DNA of 64,000 bases from a virus (Duplodnaviria; Caudoviricetes), in the IMG/VR virus record IMGVR_UViG_3300020469_000008, positions 64,001-128,000 of that record; one strand, given 5' to 3'. The notes below the pieces were generated by a model that did not search any database, was not told where the DNA came from, and saw only the letters and a program-made list of their open reading frames with translations. Below are positions 36,515 to 57,092 of this stretch, piece after piece. Numbering within the stretch: the stretch's first letter is position 1; every line of letters begins with the position of its first letter. Both the position numbers and the translations under genes were made by a program.

Positions 36515-36928
36515 ATGTTAATTTCACCTTTTGGATTACTCCAAGAACAACTAAATAAAGATCCTTGGAAGATCTTTGTTTGTTGTATATTCTGCAACCT
36601 TACAAAAAGAAGAGCGTCAGAACCCTATTTTTGGAAGTTTCTACAGAAATGGCCAACGCCGCTAGCTGCTTCTGATCTAAATGAAAACGAGTTGAAAGAA
36701 TTAATTCAACCTTTAGGCTTAGTTGATAGGCGAACAAAGGCTTTAAAAAAGATGTCATCTGATTATTTAAAAAAAGACTGGGAAGACGATGCCACTAAAT
36801 TATATGGTATTGGTAAATATGGCTCAGATGCGTATAGAATATTCGTAAAAGAAGAATGGCGCGAAGTCATTCCTACTGATAGTGCACTTAAAAATTATAA
36901 ATCTTGGCTGGAGGAAATAAATGCCTGA
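36515..36928 (+). CDS. MBD4-like HhH DNA glycosylase (T:G/U:G mismatch type)
   Basis: SPFGLLQE....DPWK.....IF.N.T.........WKFL.K.P, LGL...R, L.GIGKYGSDAYRIF..EW..V.PTD..L..Y..WL aligns end to end with the eukaryotic MBD4 glycosylase domain as recalled. Confidence 0.85.
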   Translation: MLISPFGLLQEQLNKDPWKIFVCCIFCNLTKRRASEPYFWKFLQKWPTPLAASDLNENELKELIQPLGLVDRRTKALKKMSSDYLKKDWEDDATKLYGIGKYGSDAYRIFVKEEWREVIPTDSALKNYKSWLEEINA

Positions 36929-37727
36929 AGGACCCGAAGTAAAAACAACTGTTGATTTTTTAAAATCATATGAAGGAAATATTCTCACAAAACTAACAGT
37001 TTTGTCTGGAAGATACACCAAAAAGCCTATTGTCAACATTAACAACCCATCTTGGAGACTCCCTTTAAATTTAGAATCTGTAGACTGTAAAGGTAAGTTT
37101 ATATACTTTTGTTTGCAAGAAAATGTTTACTTTTTTAACACGTTAGGTATGACTGGTATGTGGTCAAATAGTGCATCGAATCATGCTCGAATCAAATTAG
37201 ATTTTGACGGTGAAGCAGCACCATTATATTATAATGATGTTAGAAATTTCGGTACTTTTAAAATCGCTTTGCTTAAAAAAGACTTAGACAAAAAGTTAAA
37301 ATCAATTGGACCTGACTTTCTTAAAGACGGCTGGGGCCCAAATTATTTTTATAGAATTCTTAAAAAGAATTCTCATAAAACAATAACAGAATTTTTAATG
37401 AATCAAAAAAATGTAAGTGGGATAGGCAACTACTTGAAAGCTGAATGTTTATATGAAGCAAAAATATCACCACATCGTTTTTGTGCCCATATAACATCAG
37501 AAGAGTCTGACAGGTTATTCCACGCTTGCAGGCGCATCATACAATTATCTTATAAAACGGGCGGCGCAACGATTCAGAACTATCGTAAGCCAAACGGAAA
37601 AAAAGGTTTGTACAGTCAGCGCTTTGCTGTGTATAATCAAAAAACTGCACCTTGTGGTAATAAAATTATTAAAGAAAAAACTCTTGATAAAAGGACCACA
37701 CATTGGGTGCCAGCCATTCAAAAGTAA
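36921..37727 (+). CDS. Fpg/Nei family DNA glycosylase/AP lyase (Nei-like, zincless finger)
   Basis: N-terminal MPEGPEV, KGKFIYF, LGMTG, Y.DVRNFG and the H2TH motif SGIGNYLKAE.LY. The C-terminal finger has only one Cys. Confidence 0.92.
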   Translation: MPEGPEVKTTVDFLKSYEGNILTKLTVLSGRYTKKPIVNINNPSWRLPLNLESVDCKGKFIYFCLQENVYFFNTLGMTGMWSNSASNHARIKLDFDGEAAPLYYNDVRNFGTFKIALLKKDLDKKLKSIGPDFLKDGWGPNYFYRILKKNSHKTITEFLMNQKNVSGIGNYLKAECLYEAKISPHRFCAHITSEESDRLFHACRRIIQLSYKTGGATIQNYRKPNGKKGLYSQRFAVYNQKTAPCGNKIIKEKTLDKRTTHWVPAIQK

Positions 37728-37736
37728 GGAGATATT

Positions 37737-37964
37737 ATGAATGAAAATGTAAAACTGAATGATAGCGTAATCGCACACTTTGTTAAACTTTTACAGTTAG
37801 GATTATTAACAGGTACAGATATTGTTGACCATTTTAGAATGGTTAGACTCACTGTAGAAGAGGATGAATTATTTCTCAACAAAGAATACGAAGAAAATCA
37901 AGAAGAAAACATCAACAAGATGCTCCAGCAAGTAACAGAGAATTCAGAAACACAGGAACAGTAA
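37737..37964 (+). CDS. Hypothetical protein
   Basis: AAGGAG SD, in operon. Confidence 0.75.
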   Translation: MNENVKLNDSVIAHFVKLLQLGLLTGTDIVDHFRMVRLTVEEDELFLNKEYEENQEENINKMLQQVTENSETQEQ

Positions 37965-38344
37965 TGAAAGAATGTAAACTTGAAGAAATGTTTAAATTAA
38001 GACTGTCTTTTATGAAAACTATGAAAGAGGTTATTCCAGGGTCATATCCAGATTTTCCTGTTGACATCTCAGAAAAAGCATCTCAGCAAGTTTGTCGTGA
38101 TTTAGCACTTAAAGGTGTTGAAGAAATGTTTGAAGCATTACAACATTTAAAAAACTGGAAACCACATCGTGTTACAAACATTGAGCATACACTTGATAGA
38201 GAAGAGTTCTTAGAAGAGATTGTCGATGCACTAAACTATTTCTTTGCGATGTTAATAGTAACTGGGTTTGATGAAAAAGAATTGTTTACTGCATATTTAA
38301 AAAAGGATGAGAAAATAAGACAACGTCTTACTAATGGTTACTGA
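37964..38344 (+). CDS. All-alpha NTP pyrophosphatase (dimeric dUTPase / T4 gp56 dCTPase / MazG-like)
   Basis: Acidic metal-binding helices VEEMFEAL....NWKPH and LEEIVDALNYF. Confidence 0.8.
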   Translation: MKECKLEEMFKLRLSFMKTMKEVIPGSYPDFPVDISEKASQQVCRDLALKGVEEMFEALQHLKNWKPHRVTNIEHTLDREEFLEEIVDALNYFFAMLIVTGFDEKELFTAYLKKDEKIRQRLTNGY

Positions 38345-38603
38345 GGTGGTAGTGGAATCAAACGTGACATTTAATGGTAAAAAAACAGATTTGTCCTTTG
38401 AGGAAATCAAAGTAAAGGTCGATCTGTATGGTTCTTTTTCAGGATCAATTAATGCAGGAAATACAATGTTTTTATTTAACAATGTAAAGTCTGAAGATTT
38501 TCAGTATTATGTAGATACCTTTAAAAAACATTTAAACCAACAAACCGAAGCTGAGGTGACCTTTGACATTCAAACAAATGCTATTGAAACAATTACAATA
38601 TAA
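38334..38603 (+). CDS. Hypothetical protein
   Basis: It fills the gap between the two pyrophosphatase-like genes. The exact start is uncertain. Confidence 0.55.
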   Translation: MVTEVVVESNVTFNGKKTDLSFEEIKVKVDLYGSFSGSINAGNTMFLFNNVKSEDFQYYVDTFKKHLNQQTEAEVTFDIQTNAIETITI

Positions 38604-39507
38604 CAAAAAAATTGTTGGCCCCGGTGATCAATTATCACAAGAATTAAAAGAGAAGATAACACAAGATAATGTACTATGTGCACACGCAGAACTAAGTGCG
38701 TTAGTAAATGCAACTAACTATAAAAACCACCATCAACATTCAGAACCCCTAGCTAATAGAAGAACTGTTTTGTATGAGACGGTTGATGTTATTAGATATA
38801 TGATGGCAACACTGAATACATGGGAGATAACATCCTCAGAGTTTGAAAGGGCTTTTGAGAAAAAGGATGTTTATCTTAATAAGCATTACGAGCTGCAGCA
38901 GAAAAAATGGACCGGACAACCTGTTGCAATTGTTGATATTGATGATGTTCTAGCTAATTTTCGAGTTGGTTTCTCTGATTGGCTGTATGAAAAATTTGGT
39001 GTAAGGGCAGATGTAGATTCTAAAGAATATTACTTTATCACAGCACTTTCAAAAATTAACCTTAACTCTGAATCTGTATTTAAGATGTTTCTTGACGACG
39101 AAGGATTTGCAAACTTAACTATAGACACTGACAATTTAGAAATTCTGTGGCAATTAAAGAATAGAGGATACTGGATTCATCTTCTAACAGCACGACCAGA
39201 AGAAGAACTCCAATGTTTGTATGACACGTATTTTTGGATCTGGCAACAAAATATTCCGTGTGATGCAATAAGCTTTTCACCTGAAAAGTTTAGATGGTGT
39301 GCTAAATCAAAATACTATGATGCAGGTGCAATTAAATTCGCAATTGATGATGCACCAAAACATGCTGAAGATTACGCAAAACACGGAATTAAATGTTTGG
39401 TACCTAATAAATCATATAACGAGCATTTAAGCCATCAAGATATCTTTCATTTTAATACTTATAGTCAAGCTATTTCCATTTTAAAGAGTGAAAATTTATT
39501 AAGGTGA
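38563..39507 (+). CDS. Fusion: degenerate all-alpha NTP-PPase domain + HAD 5'(3')-deoxyribonucleotidase
   Basis: N-terminal HAELSALV.ATNYKNH...LYETVDVIRY. C-terminal HAD motifs IVDIDDVL, LLTARP and FAIDD. TTG start with GAGGTG SD. Confidence 0.75.
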   Translation: MTFKQMLLKQLQYNKKIVGPGDQLSQELKEKITQDNVLCAHAELSALVNATNYKNHHQHSEPLANRRTVLYETVDVIRYMMATLNTWEITSSEFERAFEKKDVYLNKHYELQQKKWTGQPVAIVDIDDVLANFRVGFSDWLYEKFGVRADVDSKEYYFITALSKINLNSESVFKMFLDDEGFANLTIDTDNLEILWQLKNRGYWIHLLTARPEEELQCLYDTYFWIWQQNIPCDAISFSPEKFRWCAKSKYYDAGAIKFAIDDAPKHAEDYAKHGIKCLVPNKSYNEHLSHQDIFHFNTYSQAISILKSENLLR

Positions 39508-39510
39508 AGA

Positions 39511-40428: not shown

Positions 40429-40473
40429 AATAATGTGGATAACACAACAAACTAAAACTAATCAGGAGAAAAA

Positions 40474-40812: not shown

Positions 40813-41796
40813 ATGCCACAAAATCTAGATTTAAAACCTGTCGACTTACCAATGGAGTTGAAGTTTGGTCAAGAACCACACACAATTTTCCATAACAATC
40901 TTGAACATCTTAAGGTAGAACTTATCGATGCTCCTACACGCTCACAAGCATTAAATGTTGCTTGGCAATATGTAAAAGCAACTTGGGCTGATCATCATGA
41001 TGAGACAAATCCAAGCACAACTAGTCTTAAAGAATTGTCTGCAAATCTCGAGGATGTGCTCTGTTTCCGCGCGCTACCAACACCAATGGAATGCCTAGGG
41101 TTTACTTTTAAGTTGTCTGGCTTGTCATTTCAAGAGGTTACACACATTATTCGACATCGAGCGGGTTCTTTCGCAGCTCAATGTACTGGTGATCGCGATT
41201 TACGTGACGATCCTGCAGTTATTCCTGAAGCAGTACAAAACTCTCCTGAGTTTCTGGAAAGATATAAAAGAATTGTGCGTGATTCAAAGCAACTTTACGC
41301 AGACATGACAGATTCAAAAGATGTATCAATGATGGATGCAAGAATGATTCTTCCAAAGGCAATGACATCATTTTATCTGATGCGTCTTAATCTCAAAGAT
41401 TTGTTAGGTTTTATTGCACAACGTCAAGATATGCAAATCCAACCTGCAGCAGATAATTTACTTGCCGTTTACATGGCACGTGAAGTTTTAAAAGTTTTAC
41501 CTGAGGCATCAGCAAGGATTGATTTCAACAAACCAGATATGCACTACATTAAAACGTTCCGTGTACCTGATGGTAAAGGTGGAGAAACATCGCGAGGCAC
41601 AAATCTGTACTGGCCTGAACCTAAGAATGATAAATTTGATTATCATCCTAACGATACAATTTATCAGTCACGCCGAGAGGATATTAACGGTACACATAAT
41701 CCAGGTACAGAAACAGTTTTCACACAATTGTGGAATGAAACATTAACAGAAATCGATGCAATTAAAGCGTCATACAATCAATTTATGGGGAAATAA
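40813..41796 (+). CDS. thyX: Divergent ThyX-family (flavin-dependent thymidylate synthase-like) protein
   Basis: TPME..GFTF, RHRAGSFAAQC (RHR-x7-S motif with Cys), DARMILP and GFIAQRQD..IQ. Confidence 0.8.
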   Translation: MPQNLDLKPVDLPMELKFGQEPHTIFHNNLEHLKVELIDAPTRSQALNVAWQYVKATWADHHDETNPSTTSLKELSANLEDVLCFRALPTPMECLGFTFKLSGLSFQEVTHIIRHRAGSFAAQCTGDRDLRDDPAVIPEAVQNSPEFLERYKRIVRDSKQLYADMTDSKDVSMMDARMILPKAMTSFYLMRLNLKDLLGFIAQRQDMQIQPAADNLLAVYMAREVLKVLPEASARIDFNKPDMHYIKTFRVPDGKGGETSRGTNLYWPEPKNDKFDYHPNDTIYQSRREDINGTHNPGTETVFTQLWNETLTEIDAIKASYNQFMGK

Positions 41797-41797
41797 T

Positions 41798-42247
41798 ATG
41801 AGTTTAGGGAAGGTATACTTAGCAAGTGGGTGGTTCTCGCCGGAATGGTTGCAAGAAGTAGAAAACATTAAGTCTGTGTTTGAAAAGCATGGTGTTAATT
41901 ACTTCTCACCAAAAGATGAAAATCTTTGTGATAACGATGCAGCTGAATCGATGCAAGACCAGATTTTTGAAGGTAATATAAAACATTTACACGAAAGTGA
42001 TTGGTTACTTTGCAATACAAGAAACAAGGATATGGGAACGATTTTTGAGGCGGGTTACTTCAATTGTCTTGAAAAGCCTATCGTGTATTTCTGTGATGGT
42101 TTGCCTGCAGGTGCGCAATTTAATCTCATGCTAGCTGCAAGTGGTATTAAGGTTTGTCGATCATTAAATGAGTTTGACGACTATCTTGGTCGTTGTGTTG
42201 GTGGTGATGAATTAATTGTTGAAAGATATCAAGGTGAAATCGAGTAA
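41798..42247 (+). CDS. Nucleoside 2-deoxyribosyltransferase / NMP N-glycosidase family protein
   Basis: VYLASGWFS, YFSP and DMGTIFEAGY (catalytic Glu). Confidence 0.85.
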   Translation: MSLGKVYLASGWFSPEWLQEVENIKSVFEKHGVNYFSPKDENLCDNDAAESMQDQIFEGNIKHLHESDWLLCNTRNKDMGTIFEAGYFNCLEKPIVYFCDGLPAGAQFNLMLAASGIKVCRSLNEFDDYLGRCVGGDELIVERYQGEIE

Positions 42248-42315: not shown

Positions 42316-43707
42316 ATGAAAATTACACGACGACAATTGAGACGACTATTAAGTGAAAGACTGTTAGTAGAAGCATCTGCTGAAGAATTAGCAAATATGA
42401 AGGGCACATATTCTATAAACCCACAGTCTGCGCAGTCACTAGGATTCGCCGGGGCTCAATCAGGCGCCGGACAAATAAAGGTCGGTCCTCGAGGCAACGT
42501 GAACGTTGGAACTAAGGATGGAAATTTTATCCGTGAAATCAAACCATCAGAAGTCACTCCGGAGCAACTAAATTACATAACACTCGGGTATGATAGAAAA
42601 CAAGCAGCAAATAATACCGTCATGGGGGAAATGAGCACTTATTTCAGAAAAAATGCAGGGTACTACAAGGTCAACAATCAATCCGGTGTACCTGCAGGAG
42701 CCACACACATTAGAATTTATGGTGATGCTAAATACCGATATATCAATTTCAATGAAAAACCAGAAAAATATGTAGGTGCCAAAGAACCAATTGCACCCTC
42801 TGTATTCCTCGGTTGGAAAAGCTTCATCGATGGTTTGACGAAAGACAGCAACCCGAGCAGTGCTGATACTTCCACTGAAGGTGAAACAGACACCAGCGCT
42901 GAAAGAGACGGTGAACAGCAACAACAACAGCAGCAACAACAGCAACCAAAACCAGAAAAGAAGAATAAACCAAAAAAATCAGCTGATAAAGATAAGAAAG
43001 TTGCTTTCATAAGAAAAGTTATTGGTGATGACGCTCCTGGCAAGTGGAACAAAGAATCAGATAAAAAGTGGAAAACTTGGGTCGAAGGGCCATACTACGC
43101 AGCAGGCGTACGCACATTTCAAAACTTTTATGCGATGGTGCAATTAGGTAAAAACAACAAAACTAATGCAACAGAAGAGGATTTTGATGCAGCTCACAAA
43201 GAAAACAACGCTGTCAGTTTAGCTAAATTAGCGGGATTCAAACCAACAATTTCAGGTGTCTACAACATGTGCAAAGAAATTGATGAAATGTCGAAAGAAG
43301 ATCTTCAAGCTACAGCAATGGCAATAACTGCTACTACTGAAGGAGAAACAAACACCGCGGCGAGCAAAGCAGTGGACAAAGATGAAGTAATAACTCAATC
43401 ATTTACCGACGATATTAAGGCTGAGATGTTTGGGGATGAAATTGCCAAAATTCAAGATCCAAGAGAAAAGTCTCGAGCAGTCAAAAACGTAGTAAACGCG
43501 TACAACAAGAAGAAAGAAGAATTAAAGAAAAAAGGCGACGAGAGGGAAATTCAAAATTTGGATAGAGGATTTAAGCTTTTTAAGAAAAGGTCTAAAGCTT
43601 CGAAAGAATTTGAAGCTGCATCTGAAAAGGTTGATGAAATAAAAGACCTGCAAGAATCGTTAAGCAGGGGCGCACTATATAGAAAGCATTACTACGGAAG
43701 ATACTAG
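42316..43707 (+). CDS. Hypothetical head-internal-type protein (N-tag MKITRRQLRRLLSE, poly-Q, C-tail ESLSRGALYRKHYYGRY)
   Basis: GATAATTA at 42250 and 42282, with a GGAGA SD. Confidence 0.8.
   Translation: MKITRRQLRRLLSERLLVEASAEELANMKGTYSINPQSAQSLGFAGAQSGAGQIKVGPRGNVNVGTKDGNFIREIKPSEVTPEQLNYITLGYDRKQAANNTVMGEMSTYFRKNAGYYKVNNQSGVPAGATHIRIYGDAKYRYINFNEKPEKYVGAKEPIAPSVFLGWKSFIDGLTKDSNPSSADTSTEGETDTSAERDGEQQQQQQQQQQPKPEKKNKPKKSADKDKKVAFIRKVIGDDAPGKWNKESDKKWKTWVEGPYYAAGVRTFQNFYAMVQLGKNNKTNATEEDFDAAHKENNAVSLAKLAGFKPTISGVYNMCKEIDEMSKEDLQATAMAITATTEGETNTAASKAVDKDEVITQSFTDDIKAEMFGDEIAKIQDPREKSRAVKNVVNAYNKKKEELKKKGDEREIQNLDRGFKLFKKRSKASKEFEAASEKVDEIKDLQESLSRGALYRKHYYGRY
42916..42945 (+). repeat. Poly-Gln tract (10 CAA/CAG codons)
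   Basis: cag caa caa caa cag cag caa caa cag caa. Confidence 0.9.
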
Positions 43708-44774
43708 ATCAATATTTTCTTCTTAAGTTTTTCAGATACAAGGTGTCTAAGAGTGAGCTCGTCAATACGAAACAACCTTCGTTCTTCTAGACCTCTTTGC
43801 TTTTTATCGTCTAGTTTAACTTCACGTCCAGTATCAGTAATTTTCTTTTCTTTAAATTCCATCTTCTTATCTGAAGTAATATCTTTAAGTTTCACACTGA
43901 GATCATCGTTGATTTCTTTACCTGAGATCGGCATAATAGCAGAAAGCTTTTTACCTTTTACCAGTTCAAACATAGCTGTTATTGTTTGACGTCCAACTTT
44001 GTAATCTTTTTGCAATCCATTTGCCTTCTGAAACTTACCAACAGCTTCTTTTGTTTTTGGGCCATAATCGCCATCGATATCATCGTCGGAATCTAAGTGT
44101 TTAAGTTGTACTAACGCTTTTTGTATTGCAGCTGTCATCATTTTATTTTCATTGTCTGATTTATTCATTGAAGTACTTAGAATTTTGTCACCTGACAATA
44201 CATCTTTAAAAAGTTCTTTTGCGCTAATCTCAAAGTCTCTGATTCCTTCTACACCGATAATTGTAATCATCCATTTAATTACATTGAATGTACCTTTTTC
44301 TGTTTCTTGCTTTACAACCTTAGGTTCTTTACCGCCAGGCTGTCGTTGTAACTTTGTACCATCAGCATCCGCGGCTGCTTTAAGTTTATCCTTACCTATT
44401 TTCTCTTCCGTATCTTTAACTTTTTGTGCACGATCGATACCTACGGAAACCTTAGCTTTTGATATGAATTGTTTTAGCTTTGACTTTATAACCTTTCTTT
44501 TGTCTTTATCAATTGCCATACCGAAGTAACTTAGAATTTTGTTATAAAAATCGATGTCTCCACTACTTAAGTTTCTATGCTTAGAACTTTTATTAAGTGC
44601 CGATTGTAATCCATCAAATAAGGACTTTGCTTTTTTGTTGAAATTTTGTTTTGATTCAGTTTGTGCTAGCGCAACTAGTCTTAGTATGATTGCATTTTTT
44701 ACGTCAAATTGTGCGTTTTTCATGCCAGGTTGCATGAAGGTTTTAATTGCTTGTCTGTCACCTCTTTTAAGCAT
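43704..44774 (-). CDS. Peptidoglycan-binding domain protein
   Basis: AIQKALVQL.......IDGDYGPKTKEAVGKFQKANGLQKDYKVGRQT. AAGGAG SD, with TATAATTA/AATAGTTA on the minus strand at 44799-44812. Confidence 0.8.
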   Translation of the reverse strand: MLKRGDRQAIKTFMQPGMKNAQFDVKNAIILRLVALAQTESKQNFNKKAKSLFDGLQSALNKSSKHRNLSSGDIDFYNKILSYFGMAIDKDKRKVIKSKLKQFISKAKVSVGIDRAQKVKDTEEKIGKDKLKAAADADGTKLQRQPGGKEPKVVKQETEKGTFNVIKWMITIIGVEGIRDFEISAKELFKDVLSGDKILSTSMNKSDNENKMMTAAIQKALVQLKHLDSDDDIDGDYGPKTKEAVGKFQKANGLQKDYKVGRQTITAMFELVKGKKLSAIMPISGKEINDDLSVKLKDITSDKKMEFKEKKITDTGREVKLDDKKQRGLEERRLFRIDELTLRHLVSEKLKKKILI

Positions 44775-44886: not shown

Positions 44887-45879
44887 ATGTCAAAAATTTT
44901 TATAACAGGTGAACGTGGTTTTATTGGTACAAATTTAGCAAAGCGCGCGGATCGTCATGGGTTTGAATTTATCTCGGGTGTTCATGAACTAAACGAAGAC
45001 GCAGCATTTGTGTCACAATTTACAACAGAAAAAGGTGAACCTTGTGTTCATCGCAATTCAGAAGAAGCGTGGCAAGCTTTTTTTGAAGTTAATGAAATTG
45101 ATTATGTCATACACAATGCAGCAGTCGTGGGTACTGATGTTGTTGCTTTAAATGCCAAAGAATCAACACTTACCAATGTGCAAGGCACATTCAATATTTG
45201 TCGTGCTGCAAAAAAATGTGGTATTCCTGTTTGTTATATGGGCACGACAGTAATTTACGATACACCAAAATATCAAGAAACTGCTATCGAAGAAGACTCA
45301 GATCGAGGTCCTCATACTTTCTACGGATGTCAGAAGCTTGCCGCTGAAGAAGTTGTTAAATCACATAGCACCAAGTGGATGATCATTCGCCCACTCTTTG
45401 CGTATGGTGGTGATGGTGATATGAACTCTTTGATTGCAAAAACGATATACGCAAAACTCAACGGCATACCTAAGGTCAAAATGTTTCTCGATCCAACAAA
45501 GTTTAAAGACTACTTGCATGTAAATGATTATTGTGATGGTGTTTTTTCTTGTATGAAAGAGGATAATTGCTGGAATAATGACTTTAATATTGCAGCTGAA
45601 ACGCCAATTGTCACAGGTGAAATTATAGAATTAATGGATAAAGTATGCGGACAGAGTTTCTCAGATACAATAGAATGGCTTCCACAGACAGAGTATATGG
45701 GTAATCATATTTTAAGCGGTAGAAAAGCCAGAGAGTTTACTAGCTGGTATCCAAAGATAGATCTAGCAGAAGGTATACGAATGTCATATGAAAGCATTTT
45801 AAAATCAGAAGGCTATAATCCTTTGAGGTACTTAGAAGAAGCAGAAGAAAAAGGTGTTGATCTAACTGAATACTTTTAA
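44887..45879 (+). CDS. NAD-dependent epimerase/dehydratase (extended SDR)
   Basis: ITGERGFIG, HNAAVVG, YGCQK (YxxxK) and IIRPLFAYG. Confidence 0.88.
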   Translation: MSKIFITGERGFIGTNLAKRADRHGFEFISGVHELNEDAAFVSQFTTEKGEPCVHRNSEEAWQAFFEVNEIDYVIHNAAVVGTDVVALNAKESTLTNVQGTFNICRAAKKCGIPVCYMGTTVIYDTPKYQETAIEEDSDRGPHTFYGCQKLAAEEVVKSHSTKWMIIRPLFAYGGDGDMNSLIAKTIYAKLNGIPKVKMFLDPTKFKDYLHVNDYCDGVFSCMKEDNCWNNDFNIAAETPIVTGEIIELMDKVCGQSFSDTIEWLPQTEYMGNHILSGRKAREFTSWYPKIDLAEGIRMSYESILKSEGYNPLRYLEEAEEKGVDLTEYF

Positions 45880-51972: not shown

Positions 51973-51975
51973 AAA

Positions 51976-52896
51976 ATGAGTCACAGCACACCTATTGATT
52001 ACATTTTTATTGAGGGTCCTGACTGTTCAGGAAAAACAACATTATTTGAAATGATACATAAAGCATCTGATTTCCAATGGAATATTCAAGATCGATCAGC
52101 ATTATCAATGTTAATTCATGCAAAATACTACGGCCGAGATACATTTAGACATGTTGAGCAACTTAAGCGTGAACTTTATAATCTTAACAACCAGCTAATT
52201 ATTTGCCTTCCTGATTGGGATGTTATTGTCAAGAGGTTTACAGACCGCGGCGATCCAATTCAGAGTCTGTCTAGTTTACATAAACTTTACAATTTATTCT
52301 TTGAGGCATCAGAAGAGTTTCAAGATTATCCTAACGTCACAGTTATCAGAAGTGTTGTGGATGAATCTCTTGTTCTTAGCCTAGTTAACCAGTATCGAGC
52401 ATTTGGAAGAAAATCTGTGCATCATCTGCGTGATTCTATGCTGCAAATGTTAGGTACATCTGCTGCAAACAAGCATCAAGAAATTATTGGTTTTAACTTT
52501 GTGCATTATGATACTGGTGATTTTTCTGATATTAACAAAGGAATGTTATTTTATGAAAAAGAAAAAGATTACTATAAAAGAATTGAAACTGCAATGTTCA
52601 AGACAATAAGTTCTGAATTAAACGGTGATAATCCATACAATCGAAAAGAAGATTTAAATTCAAGGCGATTTATCTATACAGATAATAGTTGTATTGCAAC
52701 ATGTCATTTTTTAATTCGTGATGATTATATGGATGCTCGATTTTACTTAAGGTCATCAAACATTAAAGACACAGTTAAATATGATTTAAATTTTTTAAAA
52801 CATTTGACTGCACAGGTTTTTAGATATTTTAAGTGTGATAGACAGGGAAATTATTGCAAAATGAAATTCACAGTAGGCTCAGGCCATATAATTTAA
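51976..52896 (+). CDS. dNMP kinase fused to a truncated T4 gp42-like (dCMP-type) thymidylate-synthase-fold domain
   Basis: N-terminal IEGPDCSGKTT and DRS. C-terminal EIIGFNFV, NSRRFIY, C.ATCHFLIRD....A....RSSN.......D and GSGHII. Confidence 0.8.
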   Translation: MSHSTPIDYIFIEGPDCSGKTTLFEMIHKASDFQWNIQDRSALSMLIHAKYYGRDTFRHVEQLKRELYNLNNQLIICLPDWDVIVKRFTDRGDPIQSLSSLHKLYNLFFEASEEFQDYPNVTVIRSVVDESLVLSLVNQYRAFGRKSVHHLRDSMLQMLGTSAANKHQEIIGFNFVHYDTGDFSDINKGMLFYEKEKDYYKRIETAMFKTISSELNGDNPYNRKEDLNSRRFIYTDNSCIATCHFLIRDDYMDARFYLRSSNIKDTVKYDLNFLKHLTAQVFRYFKCDRQGNYCKMKFTVGSGHII

Positions 52897-52909: not shown

Positions 52910-53461
52910 ATGAGTGAACATAGATTTATGTTAGATAGAATTAGAAAATTAGTTATTGATGTCCAAGACTTTCCAGAGAAAGGAATTGTATTTAAAGACA
53001 TTACACCACTATTCCAAAACCAGTCAGAATTTCGCAACTTAATGACTCATTATGTCAGAAAGATTAAACACGATGGCGTGATTAATAAAATAGTAGCGAT
53101 AGATTCACGAGGTTTTCTTTTTGGGACAATTCTTGCATACGAAACCGGTTTACCTATGGTACTAGCTAGGAAAGCAGGAAAGCTGCCACGCAAAACCATA
53201 CAGCAAACTTATAATCTTGAATACGGCACTGCGTCTTTAGAAATTCATGAAGAAGATATTATGCCTGATGATAACGTTTTAATTGTTGATGATGTACTTG
53301 CAACAGGCGGCACTGCAGTGGCAGTTGCGAATATTGTTAAAGCGTTAGAAGGAAACATTGCCGGCTTTTGGTTTCTCATGGAAATTAAAGAGCTAGGCGG
53401 GCAAGATATAATATTTAATGAGTTTGATATAGACACAAGTGATATTGAAGTAGTATTATAA
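52910..53461 (+). CDS. apt: Adenine phosphoribosyltransferase
   Basis: DFPEKGIVFKDITPL, DSRGF, ARKAGKLP, Y.LEYG and the PRPP loop VDDVLATGGT. Confidence 0.93.
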   Translation: MSEHRFMLDRIRKLVIDVQDFPEKGIVFKDITPLFQNQSEFRNLMTHYVRKIKHDGVINKIVAIDSRGFLFGTILAYETGLPMVLARKAGKLPRKTIQQTYNLEYGTASLEIHEEDIMPDDNVLIVDDVLATGGTAVAVANIVKALEGNIAGFWFLMEIKELGGQDIIFNEFDIDTSDIEVVL

Positions 53462-53484
53462 ATCTTAATGTTATAGGTTATAAT
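53456..53484 (+). promoter_or_regulatory. sigma70-type promoter TTATAA-N17-TATAAT
   Basis: Exact spacer upstream of the second epimerase. Confidence 0.55.
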
Positions 53485-53504
53485 ATCTAGGTTAAGGAGA
53501 ATAT

Positions 53505-54503
53505 ATGAAAAAAGCATTAGTGACAGGTGGCTGCGGTTTTATTGGTAGTAATCTGACAAAAGAATTAGTGAAGCAAGGTTGGCAAGTAGATGTTGTTGAC
53601 GACATGTCAAATGGTCATTTAGAATTATTAGAAGGATTAAATACTAGAGTTTTACTTAACGGATCATTTTATACAGCATTTAGAAATTTAGATGCTGATA
53701 GAGATAATACAGTGTTAGTTATTCAATCCTGCTTTTCTGACCCACACGTTTTGGCAGCAATTTATGGTGGTTGTTATGACGTTATTTTCCATCAAGCAGC
53801 AGTACCTCGTGTAAGCTATTCAGTAGAACAGCCATGGCATACAACTGATGTTAATATATCGAAGACTGTAAGGCTGTTTGAGTCAGCTCGAGACAGTGTT
53901 GATAGAATTGTCTGGGCATCTTCATCTTCAGTTTATGGTGGCGCTGATCAGTTACCAACAAAAGAAAACACTATCAAGAATCCAAAGTCACCTTACGCTT
54001 GGCAGAAATCAGCAATAGAAGATTTTGCAAAACAATGTTGGGATTTGTACAAACTAGACATTGTGTGTCTTAGATACTTTAATGTTTTTGGTCCCGGGCA
54101 ATACGGTGACAGTCCATATTCAACTGCAGTCTCTGCTTGGTGTCACGCGACGAAAAATAACTTAGAGTGCAGATCTGATGGTGACGGAAGTCAGACAAGA
54201 GACATGAGTTATATTGACAATACAGTTTCAGCAAATATACTCGCTGCAAAAGCTAAAGGCCCTTTTAAAGGTGAGGCTTATAATATTGCGTGTAACAGTC
54301 GTGTCTCTAATAAGGAAATACTAGATTACTTTGTGGCAGAGTTTGGTAGTAAGGTTAGACATGCACCTTGGCGATCAGGCGACGTAATGCACACGCAAGC
54401 AGATGTGTCAAAAGCAAAGAGAGATTTTGGTTATGAACCACTGATTCATTTTTGGGAAGGCTTAGAAAAGACAGTACAATGGTGGGGTTTAAGAGATGGC
54501 TGA
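53505..54503 (+). CDS. NAD-dependent UDP-sugar 4-epimerase-like SDR
   Basis: VTGGCGFIGS, VDDMSNG, FHQAA, ASSSSVYG, SPYAWQK, LRYFNVFGP, DG.QTRD and R.GDV.HT.AD. Confidence 0.92.
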   Translation: MKKALVTGGCGFIGSNLTKELVKQGWQVDVVDDMSNGHLELLEGLNTRVLLNGSFYTAFRNLDADRDNTVLVIQSCFSDPHVLAAIYGGCYDVIFHQAAVPRVSYSVEQPWHTTDVNISKTVRLFESARDSVDRIVWASSSSVYGGADQLPTKENTIKNPKSPYAWQKSAIEDFAKQCWDLYKLDIVCLRYFNVFGPGQYGDSPYSTAVSAWCHATKNNLECRSDGDGSQTRDMSYIDNTVSANILAAKAKGPFKGEAYNIACNSRVSNKEILDYFVAEFGSKVRHAPWRSGDVMHTQADVSKAKRDFGYEPLIHFWEGLEKTVQWWGLRDG

Positions 54504-55074
54504 TTTAATTTTATACACTGGGCCAATGTTTAGTTCGAAAACAACAAAATTATTGATGCAGGCAGATAAAAGATTTTACCAGAAACAAAAAGTAATTGCT
54601 TTTAAGTCGAGAATGGACGATCGTTACACACAAGTGGGCGAAATTGTAACACACAATTTTAACAAGATTCCAGCACACTTGATTAATACAGGTGATGAAA
54701 TGTTGACAAAGATAGCTGAACAAGAAGTTGACTGTGTTATTATTGACGAACTGTTTTTAATCGAAGGTGGCGCCGCAGCATGTTTAACGTTGTACAAGAA
54801 AGGGTACGATGTTGTAGTCGCGTCGATCGACTTGTCTTTTACAGGTGAGCCTTTTCATGAAATAAAAGAATTAATGCCTTATTGTACAAAAATTGTAAAG
54901 TGCAAATCTGTTTGTAGCGTTTGTCAAAAAGATGCGCGATATACTTATAAAAAAGTTAGTGTTAAACATGTCGATACTTTTGATTCTGATCCGTCTGTAG
55001 AACAAATACAGGTCGGAGGTGCAGAACTTTATGAACCAAGATGTCAAGAGCATCATAATTATATGCGTGATTAA
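54496..55074 (+). CDS. tdk: Thymidine kinase (type II)
   Basis: TGPMFSSKTT, IIDE, D.SFTGEPF, CxxC, and QVGGAELYEPRC. Confidence 0.92.
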   Translation: MADLILYTGPMFSSKTTKLLMQADKRFYQKQKVIAFKSRMDDRYTQVGEIVTHNFNKIPAHLINTGDEMLTKIAEQEVDCVIIDELFLIEGGAAACLTLYKKGYDVVVASIDLSFTGEPFHEIKELMPYCTKIVKCKSVCSVCQKDARYTYKKVSVKHVDTFDSDPSVEQIQVGGAELYEPRCQEHHNYMRD

Positions 55075-55088
55075 CCTAGGAGAGATAT

Positions 55089-55928
55089 ATGTTAGAGCCC
55101 TCGAGTGTTAACGTTGTAATATATCATGCCGACTGCACTGATGGTTTCGGGTCAGCTTATTCAGCTTGGAAACTATTAGGAAATCGCGCTGAATATTACG
55201 CTTGCAAGCACGGATCTGAACCACCAGATGTAAAAGATAAGAATGTTGTTATACTAGATTTTTCCTTCAACAACGCCACAACTAAAAAAATGATTGAGGA
55301 GGCAAATGAGTTATTAGTGATCGACCATCATAAATCTGCTGTGGTAGAATTGCATGATATATCAAATACAATATTTGACATGAATAAGTCTGGCGCCACA
55401 CTTGCTTGGGAGTTTTTCCATCCAGGTAAAGAAGCACCAAAATTTATTCAATACATTACTGATAGAGACTTGTGGCGTTGGGAATTGCCATATTCAAAAG
55501 AATTTAGTGCTGCATTTGATATGGTTCCTCACGATTTTGAAGAATTTGAAAAATTTGAGGACGATTCTGTATTTGATGATGCAGTAAAGCGTGGAAGTTA
55601 TATTTTAGCATATTCTAAGACTGTTGTTAAGAAAGTGTGTGATAAAGCTGCATCAAGAAAAATTAATGGTAAGGATGTGTTAGTCGTTAATTCATCACAC
55701 TGGATGTCAGAGATTGGGGCTAGATTAGCACCTGACTGTGACTTTGCAATGATTTGGTATTATGATCATAATGATAAAATAATTAAGGTAAGCTTACGCG
55801 CATTTCACGATAAAATTGATGTTTCAGAAGTATCTAAAAAATATGGTGGTGGAGGTCACAAAAAAGCAGCGGGCTTTGTTTTGCCTGGCGATTTTAAAAT
55901 AGAAGATCTCTTTGACAAAGATATATAA
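55089..55928 (+). CDS. DHH/DHHA1 phosphoesterase (NrnB-like)
   Basis: YHADCTDGF.SA, ILDFS, IDHHKS, DRDLW.W and GGGGHKKAAGF. Confidence 0.88.
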   Translation: MLEPSSVNVVIYHADCTDGFGSAYSAWKLLGNRAEYYACKHGSEPPDVKDKNVVILDFSFNNATTKKMIEEANELLVIDHHKSAVVELHDISNTIFDMNKSGATLAWEFFHPGKEAPKFIQYITDRDLWRWELPYSKEFSAAFDMVPHDFEEFEKFEDDSVFDDAVKRGSYILAYSKTVVKKVCDKAASRKINGKDVLVVNSSHWMSEIGARLAPDCDFAMIWYYDHNDKIIKVSLRAFHDKIDVSEVSKKYGGGGHKKAAGFVLPGDFKIEDLFDKDI

Positions 55929-55946
55929 TTATCTTAAAAGAGTAAT

Positions 55947-56267
55947 ATGAAAGTAACTAAAAATGCAATAAAAAATATCTTAATTTTAAGACAATCTTAC
56001 GGAGGTGAAACTTCATCACTAAGATTTGGTTTGACGGGTGGTGGGTGTTCAGGATACAAGTACATATTAGAGTTTGTAGACACAACTACTCCAAATGATT
56101 TGGTATTTAACTTTGATAAATTTAATTTAATTGTTGATAAACAACATATGGTTCTTTTAAAAAATTCAACAATCGATTGGAAGGACTCATTGATGGAGTC
56201 AGGTTTTGACATCATAAACCCACAAGCGAAACAACCTTGTGGTTGTGGTGAAAGTGTAAATTTTTAG
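55947..56267 (+). CDS. iscA: Fe-S carrier IscA/HesB
   Basis: GGGCSGYKY, TIDW.DSLM.SGF.I.NP and CGCGES. Confidence 0.93.
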   Translation: MKVTKNAIKNILILRQSYGGETSSLRFGLTGGGCSGYKYILEFVDTTTPNDLVFNFDKFNLIVDKQHMVLLKNSTIDWKDSLMESGFDIINPQAKQPCGCGESVNF

Positions 56268-56275
56268 GAGTAAAT

Positions 56276-56689
56276 GTGCGCTACAGTGAAAAAGTAAATG
56301 ATCATTTTGCAAACCCGAGAAACGTAGGGAGTCTAGATAAAGATTCGACGCAAGTAGGGACAGCTGTTGTTGGCGCACCTGCCTGTGGTGACGTAATGCA
56401 ACTACAACTAAAAATATCTGATGAGGGAATTATAGAAGATGCAAAGTTTAAAACATTCGGTTGTGGATCAGCTATAGCTTCAAGCTCTCTTGTTACTACA
56501 ATGGTAAAAGGTAAAAACTTATTAGAAGCTAGTTCGATTAAAAATATTCACATTGCAAAAGAATTAGAATTACCTCCCCAAAAGATTCACTGTTCTGTTC
56601 TTGCAGAAGATGCAATTAAAGCAGCAATCAAAGATTACCAAGAAAAAAATAGACAAACAAATACGGGAAAGAAAAAAGATGAGACCTAG
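56276..56689 (+). CDS. iscU: Fe-S scaffold IscU
   Basis: YSEKV.DHF.NPRNVG, GAPACGDVM, FKTFGCGSAIASSS and KIHCSVLAEDAIKAAI. Confidence 0.96.
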   Translation: MRYSEKVNDHFANPRNVGSLDKDSTQVGTAVVGAPACGDVMQLQLKISDEGIIEDAKFKTFGCGSAIASSSLVTTMVKGKNLLEASSIKNIHIAKELELPPQKIHCSVLAEDAIKAAIKDYQEKNRQTNTGKKKDET

Positions 56690-57092
56690 CTGGAACGAAA
56701 TATGGAAGAGGTTTGCTGAAGACATTGCAAAGAGATCACCAGATCCAAAGTTTCAAGTTGGAGCCGTCATTGTTTCTGATGACAACACACAAGTACTTGC
56801 ACTAGGTTATAACGGGGATCATAAAGGTGGTCCTAACTGTAGAGACTCTCTCGAGACTGGAAAAAGTGGTTTTATACATGCAGAAGTTAATGCTTTAATA
56901 AAGTGTGATTTTAACAATCCTAAAGCAAAAAAAATGTATTTAACACACGCACCTTGTCCTGTTTGTGCAAAATGTATTGTTAACGCTGGAATTGAACAAG
57001 TTCTATATATAAATGATTACGAACCTGATATGACAGGTGTGAAAATATTGCGCGATTGTGATGTTTCTGTAGTAAAATTAGTTGATAATTAA
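56679..57092 (+). CDS. dCMP deaminase
   Basis: RPSW.E....A..IA.RS, VGAVIV, GYNG, HAEVNAL and PCPVCAK.I..AGI. Confidence 0.92.
   Translation: MRPSWNEIWKRFAEDIAKRSPDPKFQVGAVIVSDDNTQVLALGYNGDHKGGPNCRDSLETGKSGFIHAEVNALIKCDFNNPKAKKMYLTHAPCPVCAKCIVNAGIEQVLYINDYEPDMTGVKILRDCDVSVVKLVDN

What the first reader, a model, noticed from the sequence alone, without database searches (positions are those of the whole stretch)
36515..57092. A dispersed but complete T4-style logic for replacing cytosine, plus matching clean-up enzymes
T4 substitutes hmC using a dCTPase (gp56, all-alpha NTP-PPase), a dCMP modifier (gp42), a dNMP kinase, dCMP deaminase and a separate thymidylate synthase (established). Counterparts are all seen here: all-alpha PPase (37964), gp42-like + kinase (51976), dCMP deaminase (56679), ThyX (40813) and thymidine kinase (54496). 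Extras are a PPase-HAD fusion, an NMP N-glycosidase-like enzyme, two NDP-sugar SDRs and MBD4/Nei glycosylases. Inference: an undescribed modified- and possibly glycosylated-cytosine system with its own pool-sanitising and repair arm.
Basis: inference. Interest (0 to 1): 0.85.

Follow-up and report, generated by a model that had tools for sequence, protein, structure and literature searches.

The report
Predicted modified-cytosine pathway in marine phage
An uncultured ocean phage carries the enzymes needed to swap the cytosine in its DNA for a modified form, most likely 5-hydroxycytosine, built around an unusual fused kinase plus miniature thymidylate-synthase-like enzyme; no chemistry has been measured.

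Summary
The window is part of a 202-kb marine myovirus contig, about 70% complete.

- **Key gene.** ORF 51976 fuses a YorR/thymidylate-kinase-like kinase to a ~150-aa thymidylate-synthase (TS) core. Pfam does not detect the core.
- **Chemistry.** The core keeps the catalytic Cys, SRR and RS motifs, and Asp at the Asn177 position, which selects dCMP. It has Asn at the Asp169 position, the published marker of flavin-dependent 5-hydroxy-dCMP synthases (RB69 gp48, DLP3 gp80, HY126 AfhB). Its best structural match is AfhB. RB69-type 5-hydroxycytosine is therefore more likely than T4-type hydroxymethylcytosine.
- **dCTPase.** ORF 37964 is related to T4 gp56.
- **Linkage.** The kinase that sits beside the synthase in known clusters is fused to it here.

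Corrections:
- The "ThyX" at 40813 is a divergent paralogue; a canonical ThyX lies elsewhere in the genome.
- ORF 52910 is an ordinary adenine phosphoribosyltransferase.
- The contig holds no glycosyltransferase. A collinear relative has a large glycosyltransferase cluster just past this contig's end, so glycosylation stays open.

First-reader notes of this scan flagged the same fusion here and in one other genome. I rate it a new variant of a known kind.

The parts
36515..36928 (+). MBD4-type HhH-GPD DNA glycosylase domain (137 aa). In animals this family acts on T/U/5-hmU opposite G.
   Evidence: phmmer E 1e-35 to human/mouse MBD4 glycosylase domain, residues 4-134 of 137. Pfam HhH-GPD. Present in 11 of 18 relatives.
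36921..37727 (+). Fpg/Nei-family DNA glycosylase/AP lyase (268 aa).
   Evidence: Pfam Fapy_DNA_glyco, H2TH and Fapy_DNA_glyco_C. NCBIfam fpg E 7e-45, below the equivalog cut-off. N-terminus reads MPEGPEV.
37964..38344 (+). All-alpha NTP pyrophosphatase related to T4 gp56 dCTPase/dUTPase (126 aa).
   Evidence: phrog_12184 E 4e-15. BLASTP to T4 gp56 E 9e-7, both ending in NGY. hhalign 89%, E 2.3e-6. Invariant EExxE and EExxD acidic motifs. Present in 17 of 18 relatives.
38563..39507 (+). Fusion of an all-alpha pyrophosphatase-like four-helix domain with a HAD 5'(3')-deoxyribonucleotidase-like domain. The start on record is probably 38578.
   Evidence: Pfam NT5C and phrog_173. Relatives carry PF08761 plus PF06941. 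AF2 pLDDT 90.4. Foldseek top hits 3bwv, 4mum and 2i7d. Profile positions 14-106 hit the stand-alone pyrophosphatase genes of relatives. Present in 16 of 18 relatives.
40813..41796 (+). Divergent ThyX-like paralogue (327 aa); not the housekeeping thymidylate synthase.
   Evidence: Pfam Thy1 68 bits. NCBIfam thyX 43.8 bits, cut-off 87.9. Canonical ThyX elsewhere in the contig scores 166.8 bits. The motif RHRAG[ST]FAAQCTGDR is conserved in six lineages, against RHRTWSYN[ES]ISRRY in the canonical copies. Present in 18 of 18 relatives.
41756..42247 (+). Nucleoside 2-deoxyribosyltransferase / dNMP N-glycosidase superfamily protein. Probable start 41798, directly after the ThyX-like gene.
   Evidence: Pfam Nuc_deoxyrib_tr E 6e-17. 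phrog_7995 E 9e-23. A DxGTxxExG-like motif is present. The same gene pair is seen in L004 and G004.
44887..45879 (+). Extended SDR of the NDP-sugar epimerase/dehydratase/reductase type; substrate unresolved.
   Evidence: Pfam Epimerase E 2e-30. All NCBIfam hits are far below their cut-offs. Conserved in L004 and L006.
51976..52419 (+). Kinase domain of the fusion protein (aa 1-148): a YorR/thymidylate-kinase-like P-loop nucleotide kinase.
   Evidence: VIA-align: YorR 3kb2 Z 13.6 over residues 8-148; dAK 2jaq Z 12.2; TMKs Z about 11. Profile hit to 2axp E 4e-5. phrog_761. P-loop, DRS and RGD motifs invariant in 114 members.
52447..52896 (+). Minimal thymidylate-synthase-fold domain of the fusion (aa 158-306) with the signature of the cytosine-type 5-hydroxy-dCMP synthase branch.
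   Evidence: Foldseek top hits 9iqu and 9iqc (AfhB), then T4 dCMP hydroxymethylase 1b5d. VIA-align 9iqu Z 10.8, 149 residues aligned. hhalign to ThyA/gp42/gp48 E 8.6e-6, pairing C239=C146, N262=D169, D270=N177, H304=H207 and SRR=S125-R127. Conservation in 114 members. Homodimer score 0.54 against best control 0.16.
52910..53461 (+). Adenine phosphoribosyltransferase: purine salvage, not part of the cytosine pathway.
   Evidence: NCBIfam NF002636 198 bits (cut-off 125) and TIGR01090 188.1 bits (cut-off 185.85). Not at this position in L004-L006.
53505..54503 (+). Extended SDR, closest to UDP-sugar 4-epimerases (TviC/GalE type).
   Evidence: Pfam Epimerase E 3e-42 and GDP_Man_Dehyd E 1e-41. NCBIfam TviC 145 bits and GalE 128 bits, both below cut-off. 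Conserved next to thymidine kinase in L004-L006.
54496..55074 (+). Thymidine kinase.
   Evidence: Pfam TK E 3e-38.
55089..55928 (+). DHH/DHHA1 phosphoesterase (NrnA/RecJ-like), conserved neighbour of thymidine kinase.
   Evidence: phrog_4771 E 2e-76. Pfam DHH and DHHA1.
56679..57092 (+). dCMP deaminase.
   Evidence: Pfam dCMP_cyt_deam_1 E 8e-21. HAE and PCxxC motifs; Met at 56679.

Best explanation
The block is the nucleotide-metabolism and replication module of an uncultured marine myovirus. It encodes an RB69-type, not T4-type, route for replacing dC with a C5-modified dC, most likely 5-hydroxy-dC.

Proposed steps, all inferred:
1. The gp56-like pyrophosphatase (37964) turns dCTP/dCDP, and probably dUTP, into the monophosphate.
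2. The C-terminal minimal TS-fold domain of ORF 51976 works as a TS-type dimer. Cys239 attacks C6 of dCMP, Asp270 reads the cytosine face, and Arg230/Arg231 from the partner subunit hold the phosphate. Asn262 at the Asp169 position marks the flavin/O2-dependent hydroxylase branch, so the product would be 5-hydroxy-dCMP.
3. The fused YorR/TMK-like kinase makes the diphosphate. Host NDP kinase and the phage DnaE-type polymerase would then take it into DNA.
4. dCMP deaminase, thymidine kinase and the canonical ThyX outside the window supply dTTP.

Still unassigned: the role of the pyrophosphatase-HAD fusion, of the divergent ThyX-like plus NDT-like pair, of the two SDRs and of the two glycosylases. 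Pool clean-up, sugar supply and repair of deaminated or oxidised modified bases are guesses.
For: - **Fold.** The AF2 model has pLDDT 86.8 and pTM 0.85. Foldseek ranks phage HY126 dCMP hydroxylase AfhB first (9iqu E 3.7e-5, 9iqc), then T4 dCMP hydroxymethylase. VIA-align gives AfhB Z 10.8 with 149 residues aligned, and YorR Z 13.6 for the kinase half.
- **Residues.** hhalign against ThyA, T4 gp42 and RB69 gp48 (E 8.6e-6) pairs C239=C146, R259-S260=R166-S167, N262=D169, D270=N177, H304=H207 and SRR=S125-R127. Counts among 114 members: C239 112, N262 110, D270 113, SRR 113.
- **Published rule.** PMC13326640 reports that D169N together with N177D marks 5hodCMP synthases. All nine additional D169N homologues tested there made 5hodC.
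- **Gene linkage.** That paper's clusters carry a YorR/TMK-like 'nucleotide kinase' close to the synthase: DLP3 gp78, RB69 gp45, RL38J1 gp214. Here the two are one polypeptide.
- **dCTPase.** ORF 37964 is related to T4 gp56.
- **Dimer.** The predicted homodimer scores 0.54 against a best control of 0.16. That mark was reached by 21 of 30 proteins solved as pairs and 0 of 23 solved as single chains. The interface includes R230/R231 and the sheet strands, as in TS.
- **Co-occurrence.** Among 18 related contigs with the fusion, the pyrophosphatase is in 17, the pyrophosphatase-HAD in 16 and the ThyX-like gene in 18. A classical ThyA/gp42 is in none.
Against: - No chemistry was measured, and no virion DNA exists for this uncultured phage.
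- The TS-like domain is about 150 aa, against 217-240 aa for characterised 5hodCMP synthases. It does not match PF00303 even at E 1.
- It lacks the N-terminal third of the fold, so cofactor binding cannot be checked. The D169N rule was derived from full-size enzymes.
- Three of 114 members, and a divergent branch of the family, keep Asp at that position.
- The contig holds no glycosyltransferase, sugar nucleotidyltransferase or UDP-glucose dehydrogenase.
- One 87%-complete relative has no PF00534 glycosyltransferase.
- All relatives are collinear, so co-occurrence may reflect common descent rather than functional coupling.
- The phage encodes Fpg/Nei- and MBD4-type glycosylases. From general knowledge, Nei/Nth-type enzymes excise 5-hydroxycytosine from DNA. 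That would be awkward for naked 5hoC DNA.
Confidence: 0.45

Rival explanations
1. This is an ordinary dTTP-supply and salvage module of an AT-rich phage with unmodified DNA. The pyrophosphatases are dUTPases, ThyX/TK/dCMP deaminase make thymidylate, and the TS-like domain of ORF 51976 is a non-catalytic or regulatory nucleotide-binding appendage of a deoxynucleotide kinase.
For: - MazG/dUTPase-type pyrophosphatases, ThyX, thymidine kinase and dCMP deaminase are common in phages with normal DNA (general knowledge).
- The contig is 35% G+C.
- No glycosyltransferase was found in the contig.
- The TS-like domain is truncated and invisible to PF00303.
- T4 gp56 itself also hydrolyses dUTP, according to the annotation in the T4 record.
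Against: - The catalytic Cys, both phosphate-binding Arg motifs, the cytosine-specifying Asp and His207-equivalent are nearly invariant across 114 members at 50-89% identity. That is hard to explain for a dead domain.
- The profile finds about 200 clusters, nearly all with the same fusion.
- A TS-type dimer is predicted, with the Arg pair at the interface.
Confidence: 0.22
2. This is the first reader's reading: a T4-type pathway in which the TS-like domain is a folate-dependent dCMP hydroxymethylase (gp42-like), giving 5-hydroxymethyl-dC that may then be glycosylated.
For: - T4 dCMP hydroxymethylase is among the best fold matches (1b5d E 2e-4).
- Asp sits at the Asn177 position, and an acidic residue sits three residues before the Cys, as in gp42.
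- A divergent branch of the family keeps Asp at position 169.
Against: - Position 169 is Asn in 110 of 114 members, as in RB69 gp48. T4 gp42 has Asp there.
- PMC13326640 reports Asn at this position in every homologue tested that produces 5hodCMP.
- From general knowledge, the folate-contacting elements of TS (Trp80/Trp83 region, C-terminal tail) lie in parts of the fold that this 150-aa domain lacks.
- AfhB ranks above gp42 in both Foldseek and VIA-align.
Confidence: 0.1
3. The main or a second base-modifying enzyme is the divergent ThyX-like paralogue (40813), working with its coupled NDT-like partner and the adjacent pyrophosphatases. The phage would then make a second non-canonical pyrimidine, or the ThyX-like flavoprotein would serve the TS-like hydroxylase as a flavin reductase.
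For: - There are two ThyX homologues per genome. The in-window one has a distinct, strictly conserved motif, RHRAG[ST]FAAQCTGDR against RHRTWSYN[ES]ISRRY.
- It lies within about 1-2 kb of the pyrophosphatase genes in the relatives, and in the window and in L004/G004 it is followed directly by an NDT-family gene.
- Pairing a pyrimidine C5-modifying enzyme with an NDT-fold N-glycosidase recalls MilA/MilB of mildiomycin biosynthesis (general knowledge).
Against: - No precedent was found. Three papers mention ThyX together with phage hypermodification, and none describes such a paralogue.
- It could simply be a second, divergent thymidylate synthase.
- No biochemical handle is available, and PDB sequence search finds nothing.
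Confidence: 0.12

Closest known systems
5-hydroxy-dCMP synthases of the arabinosyl/glycosyl-5-hydroxycytosine pathways (RB69 gp48, DLP3 gp80, RL38J1 gp216, HY126 AfhB; PDB 9iqu, 9iqc; PMC13326640)
   Same: - TS fold, catalytic Cys, and Asp at the Asn177 position.
- Asn at the Asp169 position, the diagnostic marker.
- An acidic residue three residues before the Cys.
- Partnership with a YorR/TMK-like kinase and a gp56-type dCTPase.
- AfhB is the best structural match.
   Different: - About 150 aa instead of 217-240 aa, with the N-terminal third of the fold missing.
- Not recognised by PF00303.
- Covalently fused to the kinase.
- No arabinose-nucleotide genes (arabinose-5-P isomerase, or the sugar kinase/uridylyltransferase AfhE) were seen among the ORFs scanned or in the family searches run, and no glycosyltransferase is in the contig.
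- The host phage is an uncultured marine myovirus with a DnaE-type polymerase, not a member of Straboviridae.
T4 gp42 dCMP hydroxymethylase with gp56 dCTPase and gp1 dNMP kinase
   Same: The overall logic matches: deplete dCTP, modify dCMP at C5 with a TS-fold enzyme, re-phosphorylate, and keep a dCMP deaminase and a separate thymidylate synthase. ORF 37964 is detectably related to gp56.
   Different: - Position 169 is Asn here, not Asp.
- No folate-binding parts of the fold are present.
- The kinase is YorR/TMK-like rather than gp1-like, and it is fused.
- The thymidylate synthase is ThyX-type, in two copies.
RB69 gp45 / DLP3 gp78 / RL38J1 gp214 'nucleotide kinase' (YorR- or TMK-like)
   Same: It has the same fold class: DLP3 gp78's best Foldseek hit is also YorR 3kb2. 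It has the same genomic partnership with the TS-fold enzyme.
   Different: Here it is the N-terminal domain of the same polypeptide. Direct sequence similarity to RB69 gp45 is limited to the P-loop.
Canonical flavin-dependent thymidylate synthase ThyX
   Same: ORF 40813 passes the Pfam Thy1 threshold and keeps the RHR motif, the ARxxLP motif and the later Arg.
   Different: - It fails the NCBIfam thyX equivalog cut-off.
- It replaces the residues at the His53, Glu86, Ser88, Arg90 and Tyr91 positions (T. maritima numbering, placed by eye from the RHR anchor).
- It has a roughly 90-aa C-terminal extension.
- It coexists with a canonical ThyX in the same genome.
Vertebrate MBD4 glycosylase domain
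   Same: ORF 36515 aligns over its full length at E 1e-35, including the GIGKYGxD helix-hairpin-helix segment.
   Different: It has no methyl-CpG-binding domain, it is phage-encoded, and its substrate is unknown.

Membership tests
[quoted passage not shown] | Thymidylate-synthase fold | tested here: met
   Foldseek hits 9iqu, 9iqc, 1b5d, 5jnh and ThyA at probability 1.00. VIA-align 9iqu Z 10.8 with 149 residues aligned. Only the core sheet and two helices are present.
[quoted passage not shown] | Catalytic Cys (E. coli C146) and phosphate-binding R166/S167 and R126/R127 | tested here: met
   hhalign pairs C239, R259-S260 and S229-R230-R231 with them. They are conserved in 112-113 of 114 members.
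[quoted passage not shown] | Asp at the Asn177 position (dCMP rather than dUMP) | tested here: met
   D270 is present in 113 of 114 members.
[quoted passage not shown] | Asn at the Asp169 position (diagnostic per PMC13326640) | tested here: met
   N262 is present in 110 of 114 members, with Asp in 3. RB69 gp48 has Asn and T4 gp42 has Asp in the same column.
[quoted passage not shown] | Full-size TS-homologue architecture (about 217-240 aa, recognisable as PF00303) | tested here: not met
   The domain is about 150 aa. There is no PF00303 hit in the contig at E 1, nor in 18 relatives at E 0.01.
[quoted passage not shown] | Flavin binding and O2-dependent formation of 5hodCMP | not testable with these tools
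   This needs expression with LC-MS and a UV-visible spectrum of the purified protein.
[quoted passage not shown] | Associated DNA glycosyltransferases and NDP-sugar supply genes | tested here: inconclusive
   None is found in the 202-kb contig. The collinear relative G004 has 3 GT-B, 3 GT-A and a UDP-glucose dehydrogenase 5-15 kb beyond the point where this contig ends. Two SDRs are present in the window.
T4 gp42-type dCMP hydroxymethylase | Asp retained at position 169 and folate-binding elements of TS | tested here: not met
   Asn sits at position 169. The N-terminal part of the fold and the C-terminal tail are absent from the 150-aa domain.
T4 gp56 dCTPase/dUTPase (all-alpha NTP pyrophosphatase) | Detectable sequence relationship and acidic metal-binding motifs | tested here: met
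   BLASTP E 9e-7 over 76 residues, ending in the shared C-terminal NGY. hhalign 89%, E 2.3e-6. Invariant E53/E54/E57 and E84/E85/D88. The protein is 126 aa against 171 aa.
T4 gp56 dCTPase/dUTPase (all-alpha NTP pyrophosphatase) | Hydrolysis of dCTP/dCDP | not testable with these tools
   A substrate panel (dCTP, dUTP, dTTP, modified dCTP) is needed.
ThyX (flavin-dependent thymidylate synthase) | Family threshold and RHR motif | tested here: met
   Pfam Thy1 68 bits against a cut-off of 24.8. RHR is present.
ThyX (flavin-dependent thymidylate synthase) | Equivalog-level score and the canonical RHRxxSxNExSxRY substrate motif | tested here: not met
   TIGR02170 scores 43.8 bits against a cut-off of 87.9. 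The motif reads RHRAGSFAAQCTGDR in six lineages, while the second genomic copy has the canonical motif.
MBD4-type HhH-GPD glycosylase | Full-length similarity to the MBD4 catalytic domain, including the HhH segment and following Asp | tested here: met
   E 1e-35 over residues 4-134; GIGKYGSD aligns with GIGKYGND.
Fpg/Nei glycosylase | N-terminal Pro-Glu, H2TH domain and C-terminal finger | tested here: met
   MPEGPEV start and all three Pfam domains. No CxxC pairs are visible in the C-terminal part, so the finger may be zinc-less (read).

The most novel reading that the evidence does not exclude
The 150-aa TS core fused to a kinase is a self-sufficient, previously undescribed minimal dCMP C5-modifying enzyme. 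Together with the conserved ThyX-like paralogue (RHRAGSFAAQC signature) and its NDT-like partner, it would give an abundant lineage of marine myoviruses two different non-canonical pyrimidines, or a cytosine derivative not yet described. One example would be a sulfated or methylated glycosyl-5-hydroxycytosine made by the glycosyltransferase/sulfotransferase/methyltransferase cluster seen in relatives.
Probability: 0.15. Interest if true: 0.85.

Novelty: new variant of a known kind. Interest (0 to 1): 0.62.

Why it matters
Glycosylated 5-hydroxycytosine DNA was worked out only in 2025-2026, in cultured coliphages, Acinetobacter phages and Rhizobium phages.

This locus suggests that a widespread lineage of uncultured ocean phages uses the same chemistry in a stripped-down form. 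A search listed 541 homologues of the fusion in a collection of about 5.8 billion proteins; several of those listed come from Tara Oceans samples. The TS fold is cut to its core sheet and welded to the kinase that merely sits beside it in known clusters.

- The fusion is Rosetta-stone evidence that this kinase family, whose substrate is still untested, acts on the synthase's product.
- It offers a 306-aa single-gene test object for how a TS fold switched from folate to flavin chemistry.
- If the DNA is modified, that would bear on how marine viromes are sequenced, restricted and cloned, and on which host defences matter in the sea.

Tried and rejected
- **Pfam scans for a classical ThyA/gp42.** PF00303 gave nothing in the contig or in 18 relatives. 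The TS-like domain was found only by fold search and profile-profile alignment.
- **Profile of the whole fusion against PDB sequences.** Only the kinase half hit, to YorR.
- **Search for cultured relatives.** Megablast of the block found no match. tblastn of the fusion found only P-loop-level hits in Pelagibacter and Vibrio phages. The DnaE and sheath genes are at most about 35% identical to any isolate.
- **Glycosyltransferase and sugar-activation families in the contig.** PF00534, PF00535, PF13692, PF09198, PF13439, PF20706, PF00483 and PF03721 were all negative. I do not count this as evidence of absence because of the contig end.
- **ORF 52910 as a modification enzyme.** Rejected; it is adenine phosphoribosyltransferase.
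- **ORFs 39511, 42316 and 50638 as hidden enzymes.** Rejected. They have no family hit, and they begin with the shared basic leader ending in Glu that other notes of this scan describe.
- **HAD domain of 38563 as an AfhF-like sugar phosphatase.** BLASTP to RB69 gp51 gave only E 0.002, out of register. The fold search favours deoxyribonucleotidases.
- **Restriction-site avoidance as a proxy for modification.** Inconclusive. C/G-containing palindromes are not avoided overall (mean log2 observed/expected +0.05 for 4-mers and +0.22 for 6-mers). CATG (422 observed, 653 expected) and GATC (651 observed, 821 expected) are depleted.
- **Literature.** The He et al. paper on HY126 AfhB is not in the library, so flavin-contact residues could not be checked.

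Full report
**Setting.** The window is bases 64001-128000 of a single 202,054-base IMG/VR viral contig estimated 70% complete. It encodes a contractile tail (sheath, tube, baseplate), gp32, RecA, a DnaB-type helicase, a flap endonuclease, a class II ribonucleotide reductase and a DnaE-type polymerase. No cultured phage is close: megablast finds nothing, and DnaE and sheath are at most about 35% identical to any isolate. Homologues of its proteins come from metagenomes, several of them Tara Oceans samples.

**Check of the observation.**
- 36515 is an MBD4-type glycosylase domain, E 1e-35 over its full length.
- 36921 is Fpg/Nei and starts MPEGPEV.
- 37964 is an all-alpha pyrophosphatase (phrog_12184). 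It aligns to T4 gp56 by plain BLASTP (E 9e-7, both ending in NGY) and by hhalign (89%, E 2.3e-6).
- 38563 is a real fusion. Its relatives carry PF08761 plus PF06941. The model (pLDDT 90.4) has a four-helix N-domain and a HAD domain that best matches 5'(3')-deoxyribonucleotidases. The N-domain profile hits the stand-alone pyrophosphatase genes of relatives.
- 41756 belongs to the nucleoside 2-deoxyribosyltransferase superfamily.
- 44887 and 53505 are extended SDRs of the NDP-sugar type whose substrates cannot be named. All NCBIfam scores are far below cut-off, and 53505 is nearest to TviC/GalE 4-epimerases.
- 54496 is thymidine kinase, and 56679 is dCMP deaminase with HAE and PCxxC motifs.

**The key gene.** ORF 51976 (306 aa) gets only a weak P-loop hit in Pfam. 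With an alignment of 26 homologues, AlphaFold2 gives pLDDT 86.8 and pTM 0.85.
- The N-terminal 148 residues match B. subtilis YorR (Z 13.6), deoxyadenosine kinase (Z 12.2) and thymidylate kinases (Z about 11).
- For the C-terminal part, Foldseek ranks the phage HY126 dCMP hydroxylase AfhB first (9iqu, 9iqc), then T4 dCMP hydroxymethylase, MilA and ThyA. VIA-align gives AfhB Z 10.8 with 149 residues aligned.
- Profile-profile alignment to E. coli ThyA, T4 gp42 and RB69 gp48 (E 8.6e-6) pairs S229-R230-R231 with S125-R126-R127, C239 with C146, R259-S260 with R166-S167, N262 with D169, D270 with N177 and H304 with H207.
- In 114 near-full-length family members these positions are almost invariant: C 112, N 110, D 113.
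- The isolated domain is predicted to form a homodimer, with a score of 0.54 against a best control of 0.16. That mark was reached by 21 of 30 proteins solved as pairs and 0 of 23 solved as single chains. The sheet strands and R230/R231 lie at the interface, as in TS, where the Arg pair completes the partner's active site.

**Which chemistry.** Lee et al. (PMC13326640) showed three things.
- RB69 gp48 and DLP3 gp80 are TS homologues that make 5-hydroxy-dCMP with a flavin and O2.
- Asp at the Asn177 position gives dCMP specificity.
- Asn at the Asp169 position is consistently present in this branch. All nine additional D169N homologues they tested made 5hodC.

In my reference alignment RB69 gp48 has Asn and T4 gp42 has Asp in that column. 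ORF 51976 has Asn. Their Table 1 also lists a YorR- or TMK-like 'nucleotide kinase' in each known cluster: DLP3 gp78 (best hit 3kb2, the same as here), RB69 gp45 and RL38J1 gp214. Here the kinase and the TS-fold enzyme are one polypeptide.

The reading that fits best is an RB69-type 5-hydroxycytosine route rather than a T4-type hydroxymethylcytosine route. The main caveat is size. The domain is about 150 aa against 217-240 aa, it lacks the N-terminal third of the fold, and it is invisible to PF00303. Cofactor binding therefore cannot be judged.

A profile of the domain alone, run against 1.84 billion representatives, finds only 203 clusters. Most are 300-aa fusions. Some divergent members keep Asp at position 169.

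**Correction on ThyX.** The contig has two ThyX homologues. A canonical one lies at 171449-172078 (166.8 bits). The in-window one scores 69.6 bits and fails the NCBIfam equivalog cut-off (43.8 against 87.9). Its motif RHRAG[ST]FAAQCTGDR is identical across six lineages, while the canonical copies read RHRTWSYN[ES]ISRRY. It lies within about 1-2 kb of the pyrophosphatase genes in the relatives, and in the window and in L004/G004 it is followed directly by the NDT-like gene. It is thus a conserved paralogue of unknown activity, not the housekeeping enzyme of a T4-like scheme.

**Co-occurrence.** A scan of IMG/VR found 31 loci encoding the fusion, at 80% down to 33% identity. I searched 18 contigs of 72 kb or more.
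- The gp56-like pyrophosphatase is present in 17.
- The pyrophosphatase-HAD fusion is present in 16.
- The ThyX-like gene is present in 18.
- The MBD4-like gene is present in 11.
- A classical ThyA is present in none.

Gene order is conserved in three further ENA contigs. Because all these genomes are collinear, this shows stable inheritance of the set. It does not show independent functional coupling.

**Glycosylation.** Six glycosyltransferase families, sugar nucleotidyltransferase and UDP-glucose dehydrogenase are all absent from the contig. However, the contig is collinear with the 236,652-base relative G004, and its first gene corresponds to G004 position 198.8 kb. G004 positions 203.4-214 kb hold three GT-B and three GT-A glycosyltransferases, a UDP-glucose/GDP-mannose dehydrogenase, a sulfotransferase, a methyltransferase and a PD-(D/E)XK nuclease. 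The only 100%-complete relative (G014) and G017 also carry GT-B genes, whereas the 87%-complete G011 shows none. Whether this phage has such a cluster, and whether the cluster acts on DNA or on some other glycan, remains open.

**Other points.** ORF 52910 is adenine phosphoribosyltransferase. ORFs 39511, 42316 and 50638 have no family and share a basic N-terminal leader; they are probably virion-targeted proteins. A palindrome-avoidance test was inconclusive.

**Verdict.** First-reader notes of this scan flagged the same fusion in this genome and in one other genome. Follow-up reports on RB69-type clusters had already concluded that the TMK-like kinase travels with the synthase. None of the chemistry has been measured.

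Noticed in passing
window 40813-41796, and contig position 171449-172078 (outside the window): There are two ThyX homologues per genome. The in-window copy has a strictly conserved non-canonical motif (RHRAG[ST]FAAQCTGDR), a roughly 90-aa C-terminal extension and an NDT-family gene directly after it. The pattern holds in the related contigs examined.
   Followed up: partly
window 36515-36928: This phage protein is a full-length match to the vertebrate MBD4 glycosylase domain (E 1e-35). It is present in 11 of 18 related contigs, always near the pyrophosphatase genes.
   Followed up: partly
window 39511, 42316, 50638 (starts): Three otherwise unrelated proteins with no family hit begin with the same kind of basic leader (MRLSKSQLSLIIENYLLE, MKITRRQLRRLLSERLLVE, MQISRLNLKKLIKTLLNE). 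This fits other notes of this scan about a capsid-targeting signal ending in Glu.
   Followed up: no
G004 (IMGVR_UViG_3300028384_001500) 203437-214037; loci L054/L055: A collinear relative holds a cluster of three GT-B and three GT-A glycosyltransferases (two GT-B ones also hit the PF20706 GT4-conflict family). With them are a UDP-glucose dehydrogenase, a sulfotransferase, a methyltransferase and a PD-(D/E)XK nuclease. PhoH, SpoVR, DUF444 and UvdE genes follow.
   Followed up: partly
window 55947-56689 and 57374-58051: IscA-type and IscU/NifU-type iron-sulfur assembly genes and an Fe/Mn superoxide dismutase lie within the nucleotide module. The dismutase is conserved in three relatives examined, and the NifU gene is seen in L004.
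   Followed up: no
L005 4562-9503 (ENA contig NODE_226, 197 kb): In this relative the DnaE gene is split. A 967-aa PHP/NTPase/finger part and a 363-aa HHH_6 part are separated by a 261-aa ORF with no family hit. A T5orf172/MUG113 gene lies just downstream.
   Followed up: no
whole contig G000: CATG is clearly under-represented (422 observed, 653 expected from a maximal-order Markov model), and GATC moderately so (651 observed, 821 expected). C/G-containing palindromes as a class are not avoided.
   Followed up: partly
window 43704-44774 (- strand): A 356-aa protein with a peptidoglycan-binding domain is one of the few long minus-strand ORFs with a family hit in an otherwise + strand block (35547-36527 is the other long one).
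   Followed up: no
L006 11362-12888 (Tara scaffold, 104 kb): In place of the adenine phosphoribosyltransferase, this relative carries an IMPDH/GMP-reductase-family gene and a trimeric dUTPase/dCTP-deaminase-family gene next to the fusion. The slot after the fusion therefore holds varying nucleotide-metabolism genes.
   Followed up: no
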